DNA of 29,363 nucleotides from IMG/VR virus record IMGVR_UViG_3300029566_000323; one strand, written 5' to 3'. Every line of letters starts with the position of its first letter. The first letter of the stretch is position 1. The notes below the pieces were generated by a model. That model was not told the DNA's origin. It worked only from the letters and a program-made list of their open reading frames with translations, and did no database searches. Source of the DNA: a virus (taxonomy: Duplodnaviria; Heunggongvirae; Uroviricota; Caudoviricetes). Positions 14,039 to 18,563 of the stretch are shown here, piece by piece. The translations under genes and the position numbers were made by a program.

Positions 14039-14042
14039 AGTG

Positions 14043-14933
14043 ATGAATAAAAAATATGAACTGGTTGTTAAGGGGATAAATAATTACGGGGATAAGGTTA
14101 CTGTTACTGTGAAGTCGGAAGGTGACGGGCAAGCGTCGCTGTTGTTGCCAGATGTGGCGATTAGTCTTGACCGTACTGAAGGTGCCACGCTGGAGTTTTA
14201 CGAAGCTGAGGCGAAAAAGCAGGCGAAGCAGTTTTTCATGGATGTTGCTGCCGGGTTATGTGAATGGAACGAACCGTTGCCGGAAAAGCGCCCCGTAATT
14301 TTAGAGGCGCAGGATGTGTTGATAACCTACAAAGGAAAGCTACCGGGAAGAATTACTTGTTCTCTGAAGATGCCGCCGTCAACACTGCGGTCAGAAAAAG
14401 ATGATGTTGAATCACGTATTGAAAAACTGGAGAGCTACGTCGTTGAGCTGAATAAGAAATGGTCGATATTGGTGCCTTCTGGCGATGAAAAGCAGTTTGC
14501 TGCGTTTGACGATTATTGTCGGAAAGTGATGAGCAGAAATCTCGCAGAGTGTTTCAGTATTCATAATGATAATTTCAGTGACCCGGAATGGGAGTGTAAC
14601 CGGCCATCCTTTGTTGTATCCGGTGATGCTGGGAAAATAACCATCTCAGAAAATGGGAAAGTAACACCTCCATCGCACCAGCACAGTGAGGAGCTCATTG
14701 AATTTGCCATTGATTACCTGAAGAACAATAAAAAGCAGGGGCTGATGAAGCGCGTTGGCCGTTGCATGGGATATCTTCAGGTAGCCGCTGAGATTGAAGC
14801 GCTGGCCAGTGGTGCTGATAAGGATGCAATTGTGCGGGAGGCTCTTCTTCGTGATTTTAATACTCCACCCTTTAAAAAAGGGCCGGCTTACTGGCTTCAT
14901 CCGGGGCTGACTTATCTTAAAGTGCGTATTTAG
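14043..14933 (+). CDS. Hypothetical protein (296 aa) inserted between holin and endolysin
   Basis: Intact ORF with GGGAGAG RBS; no signal peptide, no TM segment, no recognised catalytic motif; located where lysis cassettes normally have S directly followed by R. Confidence 0.75.
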   Translation: MNKKYELVVKGINNYGDKVTVTVKSEGDGQASLLLPDVAISLDRTEGATLEFYEAEAKKQAKQFFMDVAAGLCEWNEPLPEKRPVILEAQDVLITYKGKLPGRITCSLKMPPSTLRSEKDDVESRIEKLESYVVELNKKWSILVPSGDEKQFAAFDDYCRKVMSRNLAECFSIHNDNFSDPEWECNRPSFVVSGDAGKITISENGKVTPPSHQHSEELIEFAIDYLKNNKKQGLMKRVGRCMGYLQVAAEIEALASGADKDAIVREALLRDFNTPPFKKGPAYWLHPGLTYLKVRI

Positions 14934-14969: not shown

Positions 14970-15503
14970 ATGAACACCAAAATCAAATACGGCCTGTCGG
15001 CTGCCGTTCTGGCGCTGATTGCCGCTGGTGCGCCTGCGCCTGACATTCTCGACCAGTTTCTGGATGAAAAGGAAGGCAACCACACCACGGCATACCGTGA
15101 TGGTGCAGGTATCTGGACCATCTGCCGTGGTGCCATCATGGTGGATGGCAAACCTGTCGTTCCGGGCATGAAGTTGTCGAAGGAAAAATGCGACCAGGTT
15201 AACGCCATTGAGCGTGATAAAGCGCTGGCGTGGGTGGAGAAAAACATCAGAGTGCCGCTGACCGAACCCCAGAAAGCGGGGATCGCGTCATTCTGTCCGT
15301 ACAACATTGGTCCCGGTAAGTGTTTCCCGTCGACGTTTTACAGACGAATTAATGCTGGTGATCGAAAAGGTGCCTGCGAAGCGATTCGCTGGTGGATTAA
15401 GGACGGTGGCAGAGACTGCCGTATTCGTTCAAACAACTGTTACGGTCAGGTATCCCGTCGTGACCAGGAGAGCGCGCTGGCGTGCTGGGGTATCGACAGA
15501 TAA
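14970..15503 (+). CDS. R: SAR endolysin (phage lysozyme, R21-like)
   Basis: N-terminal Gly/Ala-rich weakly hydrophobic SAR segment KYGLSAAVLALIAAGAPAP followed by lysozyme core EGNHTTAYRDGAGIWTICRG…; aligns with remembered R21/RrrD. Confidence 0.9.
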   Translation: MNTKIKYGLSAAVLALIAAGAPAPDILDQFLDEKEGNHTTAYRDGAGIWTICRGAIMVDGKPVVPGMKLSKEKCDQVNAIERDKALAWVEKNIRVPLTEPQKAGIASFCPYNIGPGKCFPSTFYRRINAGDRKGACEAIRWWIKDGGRDCRIRSNNCYGQVSRRDQESALACWGIDR

Positions 15504-15856: not shown

Positions 15857-15988
15857 ATGTCAGACAAACTCATAACGCTGGCGAAGATCCTCTGTGTAAT
15901 TGTCGGCATTTCATTTTCACTAATGCTGGTTGCTCTTTTTCTTTCCATGGCCTGGATGATGTTGTCTTCGTCGGGGTTGCTGGGGTGA
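15857..15988 (+). CDS. Small membrane protein (43 aa)
   Basis: GGGAGG RBS 6 nt before ATG 15857; product [43 protein letters not shown] is almost entirely one or two TM helices; stop overlaps Rz GTG start. Confidence 0.45.
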
Positions 15989-16458
15989 ACATAAACCGAA
16001 TGCTTTCCGCGTTTATCGTTATTCTGCTGGTGGCCTGTGGTGCGCTGTGGATGGCAACAGACCATTACCGTGATAACGCGATTACCTACAAAGCGCAGCG
16101 CGATAACAAAGCCAGTGAACTGAAGCTGGCGAACGCAACCATTACTGATATGCAGGTGCGCCAGCGCGATGTTGCTGCGCTCGATGCAAAATACTCGAGG
16201 GAATTAGCCGATGCGAGAGCTGAAAATGAAACTCTTCGCGCTGACGTTGCCGCTGGTCGTAAGCGCCTGCGGATCAACGCCACCTGTCCAGGCTCCGTGC
16301 GTGAAGCCCCCACCACCTCCGGCGTGGATAATGCAACCGGCCCCCAACTGGCAGACACCGTTACACGGGATTATTTCACCCTCAGAGAGCGGCTGATGAC
16401 GATGCACAAGCAACTGGAAGGGGCACAGGACTATATCCGCACTCAGTGCCTGAAATAA
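15985..16458 (+). CDS. Rz: i-spanin Rz
   Basis: N-terminal TM anchor then …[69 protein letters not shown]…[23 protein letters not shown], near-identical in pattern to lambda Rz. Confidence 0.9.
16211..16396 (+). CDS. Rz1: o-spanin Rz1 (lipoprotein) embedded in the +1 frame of Rz
   Basis: Product [61 protein letters not shown] with lipobox VVSAC and proline-rich core, matching lambda Rz1; entirely nested within Rz. Confidence 0.85.
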
Positions 16459-16768
16459 GTTTTGTTGATGCGCCGTATCGTCGCTATATTCCCTCATTAA
16501 CAGAGACCGCAGCCCGACAGGGAGACTCCTCTGCGCGAGTGTGCGGGGATAATTAAAAACGATGCACACCGGGTTTTTACCGCGTTAATGATTCGCGGGT
16601 TTATCCCGGTGCGATGGTGGAAGAAACAGGAAGCTGTATTACAGAAAGTGCTACTACTGTATCCCGATGCGATGTATGTAATGTGAGTCAGATAATGGCA
16701 CAGGATGTGGTGATGTGGCAGTCTGGAACACAGGATATATTGTCAGAATAAGACCCGTAGGAATAAAA

Positions 16769-17095
16769 ATGAAAAGACGCCTTTTACTACTTTTTCTGTT
16801 ATCTGTCCTGGCAGTGGGATGCTCGCAGCAAAAAGCTGATGAGCCCCGGCAATTAGTGACGGTGTATCCACGATATCCGGAATATGCTGCAGCAAATTAT
16901 ATCAAGGGGCTGGTTGAGGTTAAGTTCGATATTGGTGCTGATGGGACTGTGACACGGATCGTTTTTCTCCGCTCAGAGCCTCATAATTTGTTTCGTGATG
17001 AAGTGGTGAAGGCCATGGCGAAATGGCGATTTGAAAAGAATCGCCCCTGTCAGGGAGTGAAGAGACAATTTATCTTTACGCCGTCACGTCCTTGA
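16769..17095 (+). CDS. Lipoprotein with TonB C-terminal-like domain (moron)
   Basis: MKRRLLLLFLLSVLAVGC lipoprotein signal with lipobox; mature part YPRYPEYAAANYIKGLVEVKFDIGADGTVTRIVFLRSEPHNLFRDEVVKAMAKWRFE follows the TonB_C pattern. Confidence 0.7.
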   Translation: MKRRLLLLFLLSVLAVGCSQQKADEPRQLVTVYPRYPEYAAANYIKGLVEVKFDIGADGTVTRIVFLRSEPHNLFRDEVVKAMAKWRFEKNRPCQGVKRQFIFTPSRP

Positions 17096-17187
17096 TGCTT
17101 CCAGGTAGAGAGGGGCTGGACGCAGGAGAAAAATGAAAGAGCCAGCGGTTATATTTTTGTCATGGCTGACGAGGAATGATGGAAGAA

Positions 17188-17210
17188 GGCGTTGTATGCC
17201 ACACAACGCC
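17188..17210. terminator. Hairpin between convergent genes (possible bidirectional terminator)
   Basis: GGCGTTGT-ATGCCAC-ACAACGCC perfect 8-bp stem; T-rich run downstream on the plus strand. Confidence 0.45.
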
Positions 17211-17217
17211 TCACTGT

Positions 17218-17397
17218 TCATTTCTTCTTTTTCTCTGGTGGAACCCGATGAATAAGAGTTGCACTGGTTTCCGATGAGATGGCGATATACTCGGGCAAAG
17301 TATGCTGGCAGTTTTCCAACTGGTCAAAAATACCTGCTCTCGTCTGTTGCAATGCCTGCAGCATGCGGCGGCAATGCGCCTTGCTTTTACTAACCAT
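17218..17397 (-). CDS. Small protein (60 aa), bor-position moron candidate
   Basis: AGGAAGGAAAG RBS before minus-strand ATG at 17395-17397; open frame continues upstream (to 17571), so this may be the 3' part of a frameshifted longer gene. Confidence 0.35.
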   Translation of the reverse strand: MVSKSKAHCRRMLQALQQTRAGIFDQLENCQHTLPEYIAISSETSATLIHRVPPEKKKK

Positions 17398-17458
17398 CTT
17401 TCCTTCCTCTATCAGTCGCTGCGTGAACTCATCATGTAATACCAGGTAAATGCGGATG

Positions 17459-17710
17459 TTATCGGTTTTGGCTACGCAGCATAGTACAAAACGGACAGGT
17501 GCATCCCGGGACGGGGGAGGCGTCACATGTCCCTGTGATGGTTGTTCCGGGTAATGCACTGTGTGGGGCATAAAAATGTCCGATAATTTTACTTTCTACC
17601 GCAGTTAGTTGATTCGTTGGTCCTGGTAGCACATTGGGCGAGGATTTAAATGCCAGGCAACTGAAGGATGATGTTGCAAGGGAGATAGCGAGAATATTTC
17701 TGATTTTCAT
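17459..17710 (-). CDS. Small secreted/periplasmic protein candidate (83 aa) with signal peptide
   Basis: Minus-strand ATG at 17708-17710; N-terminus MKIRNILAISLATSSFSCLA is a classic Sec signal; Cys-rich C-terminus; overlaps the extended frame of the 17218 ORF. Confidence 0.45.
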   Translation of the reverse strand: MKIRNILAISLATSSFSCLAFKSSPNVLPGPTNQLTAVESKIIGHFYAPHSALPGTTITGTCDASPVPGCTCPFCTMLRSQNR

Positions 17711-17858
17711 TTGATGATGCCTCTGTGTGAAATGACGGTAAACGACGCACTTGTGCCGGCACATAATAGCAAGCACCATAATAGATCAGATTCGATTCTT
17801 GCTGTAAGTGATAATTATTCTCGTTTTCGGGTCCTTTCCGTCGATCCAACAGGTTACG

Positions 17859-18010
17859 GGGCGGCGACCTCGCGGGTTTTCGCTATTTATGAAAATTTTC
17901 CGGGAACCATGTCCGGTTTCTCTTCAAGTTAACTATATGAAAAATAAAAAAAGAGGTCTTCTGTGAACCGGACATGCACAAAAAATAGACATGTAAGCCG
18001 GACATGACCG
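17859..18010. other. cos site: cosN (GGGCGGCGACCT cohesive end, 17859-17870) plus cosB with three CGGACATG R elements
   Basis: ACGGGGCGGCGACCTCGCGGGTTTTCGCTATTTATGAAAATTTTCCGG is essentially the lambda cosN region; downstream CCATGTCCGG (17906-17915, inverted), CCGGACATG (17968-17976) and CCGGACATG (17998-18006) flank an A-rich IHF-like segment, directly upstream of the terminase small subunit gene. Confidence 0.85.
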
Positions 18011-18053: not shown

Positions 18054-18563
18054 GTGGCTACGCAGACTGAAGTTGCCAGGCATTTAAGTCTGACCGATCG
18101 CCAGCTTCGCAGATTGCAGAAATTGCCGGGTGCCCCGATATCGAATAAGCGAGGGCAACTGGATCTGGATGCCTGGCGCGATTTTTACATATCGTATCTG
18201 AGAAGAAGTAAAAACGATGTGCCTGATGGCGATAGCGAAGACGACTATGAGGAGAAATTGCTTATTGCCAGATGGGAACTGACAGCAGAACAGGCTGTTA
18301 CACAGCAGTTAAAAAATGAGGTGTCAAAAGGAAAACTTATTGATACCGGGTTCTGTATTTTTGCCCTCAGCAAGCTGGCAATGGCGTTATCCAGTACGCT
18401 TGATTCCATCCCTTTATCCATGCAGCGACAGTTTCCTGATTTAACACCGCGCCATCTTGACCATCTGAAAACCCTTATTGCGAAGGGGGCAAATCAGTGT
18501 GCGCGGGCGGGGGATAAATTACCGGATTTACTCGATGAATATATCAGAGCAACAACTGAATAA
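18054..18563 (+). CDS. nu1: Terminase small subunit (Nu1-like)
   Basis: Aligns with lambda Nu1 in C-terminal two thirds (…FCIFALSKLAMALSSTLDSIPLSMQRQFPDLTPRHLDHLKTLIAK… vs …FCTFVLSRIAGEIASILDGLPLSVQRRFPELENRHVDFLKRDIIK…); GTG start with GAGGTGAGGAG RBS right after cos. Confidence 0.9.
   Translation: MATQTEVARHLSLTDRQLRRLQKLPGAPISNKRGQLDLDAWRDFYISYLRRSKNDVPDGDSEDDYEEKLLIARWELTAEQAVTQQLKNEVSKGKLIDTGFCIFALSKLAMALSSTLDSIPLSMQRQFPDLTPRHLDHLKTLIAKGANQCARAGDKLPDLLDEYIRATTE

What the first reader, a model, noticed from the sequence alone, without database searches (positions are those of the whole stretch)
16769..17095. Prophage lipoprotein with a TonB C-terminal-like domain downstream of Rz/Rz1
The ORF encodes a lipoprotein signal (MKRRLLLLFLLSVLAVGC) followed by a domain with the sequence pattern of the TonB C-terminal domain. 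It lies in the bor-like moron position. A phage-encoded TonB-C mimic could bind TonB boxes of outer-membrane receptors such as FhuA or BtuB and so block superinfection or colicin entry, analogous in outcome to Cor/Llp-type exclusion lipoproteins but by a different fold.
Basis: inference. Interest (0 to 1): 0.6.

Follow-up and report, generated by a model that had tools for sequence, protein, structure and literature searches.

The report
Phage outer-membrane lipoprotein carrying TonB's C-terminal domain
A lambdoid prophage gene between the lysis genes and cos encodes a small outer-membrane lipoprotein that is essentially only the receptor-binding C-terminal domain of TonB; it is common, already annotated in phage 21 and about 30% of complete E. 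coli genomes, and functionally untested, and it most plausibly acts as a non-energised decoy for TonB boxes.

Summary
Window 16769-17095 (+) encodes a 108-aa protein with a lipoprotein signal (lipobox AVGC, Cys18, Ser at +2) followed after 8 residues by a TonB_C domain. Pfam gives 49 bits against a cutoff of 24.6. The domain is 38% identical to E. coli TonB 151-235, and the AlphaFold model superposes on receptor-bound TonB at about 1 Å rmsd.

The gene is not new. The identical protein is annotated in phage 21 as "TonB C-terminal domain protein", and 1617 of 5426 complete E. coli genomes carry the gene. It is under purifying selection (dN/dS 0.12). It lies between Rz and the small terminase subunit, on the late strand, in every one of 80 viral loci that had enough flanking DNA, in at least three phage types.

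It lacks TonB's membrane anchor, proline-rich spacer and C-terminal blocking strand, so it cannot transduce energy. It keeps the strand that pairs with TonB boxes.

The best reading (about 0.45) is an outer-membrane-tethered TonB-box decoy that blocks TonB-dependent phages and colicins. No binding or phenotype data exist. No promoter of its own was found, so expression is probably late. It is not a Cor, Llp, Bor or spanin family member.

The parts
16769..17095 (+). CDS of the 108-aa TonB_C lipoprotein (stop included). It is identical to phage 21 CPT_21_73 / UMO75484.1 and to RefSeq WP_000830178.1.
16759..16762 (+). Shine-Dalgarno AGGA, 6 nt before the ATG
   Evidence: The same site is annotated as the RBS in phage 21.
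16769..16822 (+). Lipoprotein signal peptide and lipobox (residues 1-18; Cys18 is codon 16820-16822). Ser19 at +2 predicts outer-membrane sorting.
   Evidence: Read directly from the sequence. Cys18 is invariant among the phage-type homologues. Lipoboxes are present in most short homologues.
16844..17083 (+). TonB C-terminal domain (residues 26-105), equivalent to E. coli TonB 153-232
17048..17077 (+). Last beta strand (residues 94-103, CQGVKRQFIF). It is equivalent to the TonB strand (residues 226-231) that pairs with TonB boxes. F101 and F103 correspond to I228 and F230. The protein ends 5 residues later, so TonB's blocking strand 235-239 is absent.
   Evidence: PMC6118199
15985..16458 (+). 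Rz (i-spanin), with Rz1 (o-spanin) embedded at 16211-16396. This is the upstream neighbour.
16614..16751 (+). 45-aa ORF upstream. It is annotated as hypothetical in phage 21 and is conserved with the 100% allele but not as an ORF in the 72% allele. It is doubtful as a gene.
17218..17397 (-). Convergent YlcI/YnfO-family small gene, the downstream neighbour. A terminator-like hairpin for it lies at 17056-17044, inside the 3' end of the TonB_C gene.
17858..17859 (.). Approximate cos cleavage point. Window 16469-17858 aligns at 98.7% identity to the right end of the linear phage 21 genome.
18054..18563 (+). Terminase small subunit (Nu1-like), the first gene after cos

Best explanation
The gene encodes an outer-membrane, inner-leaflet lipoprotein whose periplasmic part is a stand-alone TonB C-terminal domain. 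It has no inner-membrane anchor, no ExbB/ExbD-coupling region and no proline-rich spacer, so it cannot deliver energy.

Proposed mechanism (inferred, not shown): it sits next to TonB-dependent transporters and captures their TonB boxes, and possibly those of incoming group B colicins, by the same beta-strand pairing that TonB uses. This would compete with host TonB and uncouple the transporters. The expected outcome is loss of TonB-dependent irreversible adsorption and entry of phages such as T1 and phi80, and of TonB-dependent colicins and microcins, at the cost of siderophore and B12 uptake.

No promoter of its own was found and the gene lies co-directionally at the end of the late operon. 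It is therefore probably made mainly after induction or infection, protecting the productive cell during the long late period rather than permanently starving the lysogen.

Shown here: the ORF, the lipobox, the domain identity, the fold, the missing TonB parts, purifying selection and the conserved position. Inferred: lipidation and outer-membrane sorting, TonB-box binding, competition with TonB, timing of expression and the exclusion phenotype.
For: - **Domain and fold.** TonB_C scores above curated cutoffs. The protein is 38% identical to E. coli TonB 151-235 without gaps. The model superposes on BtuB-bound and FhuA-bound TonB at 1.0-1.2 A, with target-normalised TM 0.92-0.93.
- **TonB-box-pairing strand retained.** Hydrophobic F101 and F103 stand at the positions of I228 and F230. 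F230 is the residue that packs on the conserved Val of the TonB box (PMC6118199). F103 is nearly invariant in the family.
- **Blocking strand absent.** The protein ends at the equivalent of TonB T235. It therefore lacks the strand 235-239 that blocks the binding edge in the E. coli TonB NMR structure and must be exchanged for the TonB box.
- **Positive charge at the strand start.** K98/R99 lie at the start of the strand, and R/K at position 99 is conserved in most lipoprotein homologues. A positive charge at this position in Pseudomonas TonB was proposed to meet the acidic first residue of TonB boxes.
- **Energy-transducing parts absent.** Full-length TonB equivalog models score 45-69 bits against cutoffs of 265-448. 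Only 8 residues separate Cys18 from the domain.
- **Precedent.** An overexpressed periplasmic TonB domain inhibits iron import, and a TonB-box pentapeptide reduces phi80 infection and colicin killing (PMC9841981).
- **Analogy.** Llp and Cor are inner-leaflet outer-membrane lipoproteins that act on the periplasmic face of FhuA.
- **A real, selected gene.** dN/dS is 0.12, and 1617 of 5426 complete E. coli genomes carry it.
- **Conserved position.** It lies between Rz and the small terminase subunit in every one of 80 viral loci with enough flank, and in phages with three different head modules.
Against: - There are no binding, localisation or phenotype data. No functional paper was found in ten literature searches, and PADLOC gave no hit.
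- TonB residues implicated in receptor contact are changed: R158 to T, Q160 to Y and R166 to Y. R166 is described as a highly conserved positive charge that contacts the FhuA plug.
- No sigma-70 consensus promoter or Fur box lies upstream. Expression in lysogens, where exclusion would matter most, is therefore unsupported.
- A constitutive pan-TonB inhibitor would be costly, yet about 30% of complete E. coli genomes, including UTI89 and O157:H7, carry the gene.
- Phage 21 uses LamB, not a TonB-dependent receptor, so any exclusion would act against other phages.
- Homologous small lipoproteins occur in non-prophage chromosomal contexts in Raoultella, Erwinia and a metagenomic contig next to ahpCF. 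The family may therefore have a housekeeping envelope role unrelated to phage exclusion.
- The short 8-residue tether may constrain the orientation of the domain relative to the transporters. This could not be modelled here.
Confidence: 0.45

Rival explanations
1. It is a selective binder rather than a general decoy. The domain has diverged to recognise one particular TonB-box-like partner. That partner could be a single transporter, the TonB box of an incoming group B colicin or microcin, or a protein of a competing phage, which the lipoprotein would neutralise at the outer membrane.
For: - The differences between the two E. coli alleles cluster in the signal peptide, in residues 30-38 (equivalent to TonB 157-165) and in the last strand and tail (residues 90-107). 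The core, residues 39-89, is almost identical.
- The receptor-contact residues R158, Q160 and R166 are replaced.
- Carriage by about 30% of complete E. coli genomes argues against a costly general block.
Against: - TonB-box pairing is mostly backbone and hydrophobic and is therefore generic (PMC6118199).
- No candidate partner was identified.
- The comparison rests on too few alleles for a statistical test.
Confidence: 0.15
2. It is an envelope or lysis accessory. An outer-membrane lipoprotein that contacts peptidoglycan or outer-membrane proteins would modulate envelope integrity or the timing and efficiency of spanin-mediated outer-membrane disruption.
For: - It is invariably linked to the end of the lysis cassette, on the same strand, across different head modules.
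- It is probably co-transcribed with the late and lysis genes, since no promoter of its own and no intervening terminator were found.
- PHROG 1267 is labelled 'Rz-like spanin'.
- Chromosomal homologues lie next to envelope-stress genes, such as a Spy-like protein and a glycine-zipper lipoprotein in Raoultella. That reading comes from inspecting the ORFs, not from a profile search.
Against: - The lysis-to-terminase junction is a general hot spot for accessory genes; bor sits there too.
- The window has a complete Rz/Rz1 pair of its own.
- Lambda and the K-12 prophages lyse without this gene.
- No domain other than TonB_C is present.
Confidence: 0.15
3. It is a host-interaction or virulence moron like Bor/Iss. 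A lipoprotein made in the lysogen would alter serum resistance, adhesion or iron-related fitness in the animal host.
For: - It lies next to bor in phage 21 and in about half of the related loci.
- It is frequent in clinical E. coli, including UTI89, ATCC 25922 and O157:H7.
Against: - Similarity to Bor is confined to the signal peptide.
- No promoter of its own was detected.
- The only well-established ligand class of the TonB_C fold is periplasmic.
Confidence: 0.1
4. It is a decaying fragment of a captured tonB gene with no function. Early genome annotations called it a 'partial tonB-like membrane protein'.
For: - The old annotation strings say so.
- Only the C-terminal third of TonB is represented.
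Against: - dN/dS is 0.12 between alleles, with synonymous divergence of about 1.5.
- A functional-looking lipoprotein signal has been added and is conserved.
- The ORF is intact in more than 1600 genomes.
- A whole family of similar short lipoproteins exists.
Confidence: 0.03

Closest known systems
TonB C-terminal domain of Escherichia coli (PDB 1U07, 1XX3; in complex 2GSK with BtuB and 2GRX with FhuA)
   Same: - The fold is the same, at rmsd 1.0-1.2 A.
- The sequence is 38% identical over 85 ungapped positions.
- The signature residues are conserved: Y163/P164, F180, G186, F202, W213, F230 and P220/G223.
- The TonB-box-pairing strand is present.
   Different: - There is no N-terminal membrane anchor and no Pro-rich spacer. 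A cleavable lipoprotein signal tethers the domain to the outer rather than the inner membrane.
- The protein ends before TonB residues 236-239.
- R158, Q160 and R166 are not conserved, and positive charges are added at the start of the last strand.
Engineered periplasmic TonB fragments (Howard et al. 2001, as cited in PMC9841981)
   Same: Both are a TonB C-terminal region without energy coupling, placed in the periplasm. The engineered fragments inhibit TonB-dependent iron import, which is the proposed mode of action here.
   Different: The fragments are laboratory constructs that are soluble and overexpressed. This protein is natural, phage-borne, lipid-anchored and diverged. The original paper was not available to read.
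Cor (HK022, phi80, N15) and Llp (T5) superinfection-exclusion lipoproteins
   Same: Both are small phage-encoded lipoproteins of the inner leaflet of the outer membrane that act on the periplasmic face of a TonB-dependent transporter. The proposed outcome, exclusion of incoming phage, is similar.
   Different: - The sequence and fold are unrelated. BLASTP similarity to HK022 Cor is limited to the signal peptide, and Pfam finds only TonB_C.
- Cor and Llp are specific for FhuA and close its surface loops allosterically. A TonB-box decoy would instead act on energy coupling, and potentially on many transporters.
- The genomic position differs: cor lies after J, whereas this gene lies after Rz.
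Bor/Iss lipoprotein of lambda and phage 21
   Same: Both are small lipoprotein accessory genes in the Rz-to-cos interval.
   Different: - Bor is on the opposite strand.
- The mature sequences are unrelated.
- Bor co-occurs with this gene rather than being replaced by it.
Small chromosomal TonB_C-only lipoproteins of Enterobacterales (e.g. Raoultella ornithinolytica, Erwinia sp.; uncharacterised)
   Same: They have the same architecture (lipobox followed by a single TonB_C domain, 105-135 aa) and are 38-45% identical.
   Different: They are not in prophages, and their tether and C-terminal tail lengths vary. Their function is also unknown.

Membership tests
TonB_C domain (Pfam PF03544 / TIGR01352) | Profile score above the curated cutoff | tested here: met
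   PF03544 scores 49.2 bits against 24.6. TIGR01352 scores 47.4 bits against 27.1.
TonB_C domain (Pfam PF03544 / TIGR01352) | [quoted passage not shown] | tested here: met
   The AF2 model has pLDDT >97 over the domain. Foldseek gives rmsd 1.0-1.2 A and probability 1.00 to 1U07, 2GSK_B and 2GRX_C.
TonB energy transducer (NCBIfam PRK10819 equivalogs) | Full-length match above the equivalog cutoff | tested here: not met
   It scores 45-69 bits against cutoffs of 265-448, and only the last ~85 model positions align.
TonB energy transducer (NCBIfam PRK10819 equivalogs) | Uncleaved N-terminal membrane anchor that couples to ExbB/ExbD, plus a proline-rich periplasm-spanning spacer | tested here: not met
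   The N-terminus is a cleavable lipoprotein signal ending in the lipobox AVGC. Only 8 residues (SQQKADEP) precede the domain.
TonB energy transducer (NCBIfam PRK10819 equivalogs) | Binding of TonB boxes by strand pairing | not testable with these tools
   The strand and its hydrophobic residues are conserved.
Bacterial outer-membrane lipoprotein | Signal peptide with lipobox [LVI][ASTVIM][GAS]C, and a non-Asp residue at +2 | tested here: met
   The sequence is MKRRLLLLFLLSVLAVGC|S. The Cys is invariant in the phage-type homologues. Lipidation and localisation themselves are not tested.
Cor/Llp exclusion lipoproteins | Sequence or fold relationship to Cor/Llp | tested here: not met
   BLASTP against HK022 Cor matches only the signal peptide, at E=0.08. 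Pfam and PDB searches give TonB only.
Cor/Llp exclusion lipoproteins | Inactivation of FhuA as a phage receptor | not testable with these tools
   This needs expression and plating assays.
Bor/Iss | Sequence relationship to Bor | tested here: not met
   BLASTP against phage 21 Bor matches only the signal peptide and the first residues. Pfam gives no Bor hit.
Spanins (label of PHROG 1267) | Either an o-spanin (a short Pro-rich lipoprotein paired with, and usually embedded in, an i-spanin gene) or a u-spanin (a lipoprotein with a C-terminal transmembrane helix) | tested here: not met
   The window has its own Rz with embedded Rz1 at 15985-16458 and 16211-16396. This protein is a globular TonB_C domain with no C-terminal hydrophobic segment. 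The PHROG label looks like an annotation error.
Moron (autonomous accessory gene of lambdoid phages) | Variable presence between otherwise syntenic phages | tested here: met
   The gene is present in 1617 of 5426 complete E. coli genomes. It occurs with or without bor, and with different head modules.
Moron (autonomous accessory gene of lambdoid phages) | Own promoter and terminator allowing expression from the repressed prophage | tested here: inconclusive
   No + strand promoter scoring at least 9 of 12 lies upstream; the best are 8 of 12. Weak terminator-like sites lie 470 or more nt downstream. Consensus scans cannot exclude a non-canonical promoter.

The most novel reading that the evidence does not exclude
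A natural, phage-encoded, outer-membrane-anchored copy of TonB's receptor-binding domain acts as a broad-spectrum decoy for TonB boxes. It would uncouple many TonB-dependent transporters at once and so exclude TonB-dependent phages (T1/phi80-like) and group B colicins and microcins. This would be a superinfection-exclusion principle that targets energy coupling rather than a single receptor. The chromosomal homologues would then be endogenous negative regulators of TonB-dependent uptake.
Probability: 0.3. Interest if true: 0.7.

Novelty: new variant of a known kind. Interest (0 to 1): 0.45.

Why it matters
If the decoy reading holds, one small prophage gene present in about a third of complete E. 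coli genomes would change three things: susceptibility to TonB-dependent phages, which matters for phage therapy cocktails; susceptibility to colicins, microcins and siderophore-antibiotic conjugates; and iron and B12 uptake during induction. It would also be a natural proof of principle for inhibiting the TonB-TonB box interaction, which is being pursued as an antibiotic target (PMC9841981). It would add a third, fold-unrelated class next to Cor and Llp among phage lipoproteins that act on TonB-dependent transporters.

If the reading is wrong, the gene is still a very common, conserved, uncharacterised late gene of phage 21-type lysis modules. It is easy to study, because phage 21 carries it and E. 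coli K-12 does not.

Tried and rejected
- **Longer GTG start at 16715 (126 aa): rejected.** It would bury the signal peptide, and RefSeq and the phage 21 annotation use the ATG at 16769 with its AGGA site.
- **Spanin identity (PHROG 1267 label): rejected**.
- **Membership in Cor or Bor: rejected.** Direct comparison matched only the signal peptides.
- **Pseudogene or tonB fragment: rejected** on dN/dS and conservation.
- **Own promoter or Fur box upstream: not found.** There was no + strand promoter scoring at least 9 of 12 and no Fur box scoring at least 13 of 19 in 16350-16800. An alignment of upstream regions from four phages showed only short conserved blocks that coincide with the ends of the 45-aa ORF.
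- **The 45-aa upstream ORF as a partner gene: doubtful.** It is not conserved as an ORF in JLK-2012.
- **Defence-system libraries:** no PADLOC hit.
- **BFVD viral structure library:** no match with E<=0.001. The AFDB50 library was unavailable.
- **Structure prediction with E. coli TonB in the alignment:** No complex with a TonB-box peptide could be modelled.
- **Literature:** ten searches found no functional study of this protein. The phage 21 genome announcement does not mention it. Howard et al. 2001 could not be retrieved.
- **First search for related loci attempt with the wide alignment:** failed for lack of conserved blocks. The genome-contig scan returned only 4 loci.

Full report

Yes. 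Window 16769-17095 (+) is an ORF of 108 codons with an AGGA ribosome-binding site six bases upstream. The product begins MKRRLLLLFLLSVLAVGC|SQQ. That is a basic n-region, a 12-residue hydrophobic core, a lipobox (A-V-G-C) and Ser at +2. [quoted passage not shown]

The rest of the protein is a TonB C-terminal domain:
- Pfam PF03544 scores E=7e-13, 49.2 bits against a cutoff of 24.6.
- TIGR01352 scores 47.4 bits against 27.1.
- phmmer against PDB sequences aligns residues 24-103 without gaps to E. coli TonB 151-230, with E about 1e-14. Over 85 positions, 32 are identical.
- An AlphaFold2 model built on a 27-sequence alignment has pLDDT >97 across residues 30-105.
- The model superposes on TonB structures at 1.0-1.2 A, including the BtuB-bound and FhuA-bound forms (2GSK_B and 2GRX_C, target-normalised TM 0.92-0.93).

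The gene lies 310 bp after Rz (15985-16458), which has Rz1 embedded at 16211-16396. The ORF is a real gene. Against the 72%-identical allele of phage JLK-2012, dN/dS is 0.12 with dS about 1.5.

**2. What is it, and is it new?**

The protein is 100% identical to gene product CPT_21_73 of phage 21. That gene is annotated "TonB C-terminal domain protein" (UMO75484.1). The same protein occurs in phages ev017, Perceval and PhiR47_2, among others. A 72% allele occurs in Stx1a phages and JLK-2012, and a 41% relative in a Klebsiella phage.

RefSeq calls it "TonB family protein" (WP_000830178.1). Of 5426 complete E. coli genomes, 1617 carry the gene: 1202 at >=99% identity and 392 at about 73%. Carriers include UTI89, ATCC 25922 and O157:H7 strains. 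So the gene and its domain are already recorded in databases.

What I could not find is any functional study. Ten full-text searches found none, and the phage 21 genome announcement does not discuss the gene. PADLOC has no model for it, and BFVD holds no similar viral structure at E<=0.001. PHROG 1267 matches at E=5e-43 but is labelled "Rz-like spanin". That label does not fit. The window has its own Rz/Rz1 pair, and this protein is a globular TonB_C domain without a C-terminal membrane helix.

**3. Context**

The window is a lambdoid (Qin/21-like) prophage. It is nearly identical to one in E. coli strain 7/2, with the gene order hokD, rem, RusA, Q, holin, lysozyme, Rz/Rz1, this gene, Nu1, A and the head and tail genes. 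Window 16469-17858 matches the right end of the linear phage 21 genome at 98.7% identity. This places cos near 17858, so this is the last sizeable gene before cos.

In 80 IMG/VR loci, every locus with enough flanking DNA has Rz upstream and a terminase small subunit downstream, all on the same strand. A small convergent YnfO/YlcI-family gene follows in nearly all of them. Bor, on the opposite strand, lies just upstream in about half of the loci, including phage 21, but not in this window.

The same placement recurs with other head modules:
- JLK-2012, with an HNH endonuclease and an HK97-type terminase.
- A Klebsiella phage.
- A 44%-identical relative that lies between a DUF2514 (Rz-like) gene and HNH/Terminase_4 genes.

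No + strand sigma-70 consensus promoter, Fur box or terminator lies between Rz and the gene. By analogy with lambda, where the Q-antiterminated late transcript runs through the lysis genes and across cos (established knowledge), the gene is most likely transcribed with the late operon. This is an inference.

**4. The wider family**

An exhaustive HMMER search found 2795 relatives. Among the best hits are many proteins of 105-135 aa with the same architecture, a lipobox or plain signal peptide followed by one TonB_C domain. Some are chromosomal and not in prophages:
- Raoultella ornithinolytica, between lacZ/lacI, small envelope genes and a DUF1440-like gene.
- Erwinia, next to the ara genes.
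- A metagenomic contig, next to ahpCF.

So the TonB_C-only lipoprotein is a broader, uncharacterised family. The phage copies form one branch of it, with a fixed position after the lysis cassette.

**5. How it most likely works**

The protein lacks everything that lets TonB transduce energy. It has no uncleaved N-terminal anchor for ExbB/ExbD and no proline-rich spacer. Full-length TonB models score 45-69 bits against cutoffs of 265-448.

It keeps the fold and the last strand. In TonB, residues 226-231 of that strand pair in parallel with the TonB box, mostly through hydrophobic contacts, with F230 against the conserved Val of the box (PMC6118199). The equivalents here are R99-Q100-F101-I102-F103-T104. 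F101 and F103 stand at the positions of I228 and F230, and F103 is nearly invariant in the family.

The protein stops at the equivalent of T235. It therefore lacks residues 236-239, which form part of the extra strand (235-239) that covers this edge in the E. coli TonB NMR structure and must be exchanged for the TonB box. The binding edge should thus be permanently open.

K98 and R99 add positive charge at the start of the strand. A positive charge at that place in Pseudomonas TonB was proposed to meet the acidic first residue of TonB boxes. K/R at position 99 is shared by most lipoprotein relatives.

Taken together, the simplest mechanism is a non-energised competitor held at the outer membrane. 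It would bind TonB boxes and keep host TonB from engaging them. Three published observations support the plausibility:
- An overexpressed periplasmic TonB domain inhibits iron import.
- A TonB-box pentapeptide reduces phi80 infection and colicin killing (both cited in PMC9841981).
- Llp and Cor show that phages do deploy inner-leaflet outer-membrane lipoproteins against the periplasmic face of a TonB-dependent transporter.

I put this at about 0.45.

**6. What speaks against it**

- Nothing here measures binding or phenotype.
- R158, Q160 and R166 of TonB are replaced by T, Y and Y. R166 is described as a highly conserved charge that contacts the FhuA plug.
- Expression in lysogens is unsupported. 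A constitutive general block of TonB would be costly for the many pathogenic carriers. Late expression avoids that cost but narrows the benefit to protecting induced or infected cells during the late period.
- Phage 21 itself uses LamB, so any exclusion would be directed at other phages.
- The chromosomal homologues suggest the family could have an envelope role unrelated to phages.

Rival readings are a selective binder of one partner (0.15), an envelope or lysis accessory (0.15), a Bor-like host-interaction factor (0.10), and a dead tonB fragment (0.03, contradicted).

**7. Comparison with known families**

- It is a member of the TonB_C domain family. Both the profile and the fold tests are met.
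- It is not a TonB energy transducer. Three defining features were tested and not met.
- It is not a Cor/Llp or Bor family member. Similarity is confined to the signal peptide.
- It is not a spanin.

It may work like Cor and Llp in outcome, but it would target energy coupling rather than the conformation of one receptor.

**8. Verdict**

The domain and lipoprotein assignments are correct but are already in public annotation. The functional hypothesis is reasonable, has precedent and is readily testable, but it remains unproven.

- Novelty: a new variant of known kinds, namely a TonB_C domain in a lipoprotein-only architecture and a possible third class of phage lipoprotein acting on TonB-dependent transporters.
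- Interest: 0.45.

Noticed in passing
window 16896-16923 (- strand) and 17044-17056 (- strand): A strong promoter-like match on the minus strand lies inside the TonB_C gene (TTAACC-16-TATAAT, 10 of 12, with an extended -10 TG). A minus-strand terminator-like hairpin lies inside the gene's 3' end. The hairpin probably terminates the convergent YnfO-like gene. The promoter would give an antisense transcript across the 5' half of the gene, and towards bor in phages that have it.
   Followed up: no
window 17804-17828: A Fur-box-like sequence (15 of 19 matches to GATAATGATAATCATTATC, GAAAACGAGAATAATTATC at 17810-17828 on the - strand, with an overlapping 14 of 19 match from 17804) lies in the AT-rich region just before cos. 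It may simply be a cos or IHF-type AT-rich element.
   Followed up: no
window 16614-16751 (+): A 45-aa ORF directly upstream is annotated as hypothetical in phage 21 and travels with the 100% allele in nearly all loci. It is not conserved as an ORF in the 72% allele of JLK-2012. Only its first and last ~15 nt are conserved there.
   Followed up: partly
PHROG phrog_1267 (database, matched by window 16769-17095): The PHROG family containing this protein is labelled 'Rz-like spanin' in the lysis category. The members are TonB_C lipoproteins, so the label looks like an annotation error that could propagate.
   Followed up: yes
L083 7998-8333 (Raoultella ornithinolytica), L085 557-913 (Erwinia sp.), L092 6001-6402 (metagenome): Homologous TonB_C-only lipoproteins (38-45% identity) sit in non-prophage chromosomal contexts: near lacZ/lacI and small envelope genes, near araBA/araFG, and next to ahpCF, a GST and a GGDEF gene. 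This is an uncharacterised bacterial family.
   Followed up: partly
proteins P0036, P0043, P0047, P0054 and others: Many of the best remote hits are long proteins with 3-6 separate TonB_C-matching stretches, for example P0036 (513 aa, 5 stretches). These are multi-TonB_C proteins of unknown role.
   Followed up: no
window 14040-14933 (+): A 297-aa ORF lies between the class II holin and the lysozyme (14970-15503). RefSeq annotates only a truncated 'YdfR family' pseudogene there, so the lysis cassette of this prophage is interrupted or carries an insertion.
   Followed up: no
L089 (NZ_CP023820.1 1294000-1310000): The prophage that matches the window has Lom after J, then a long side tail fibre gene, its assembly gene and a SAM-dependent methyltransferase. 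It has no cor, and it abuts potB.
   Followed up: partly
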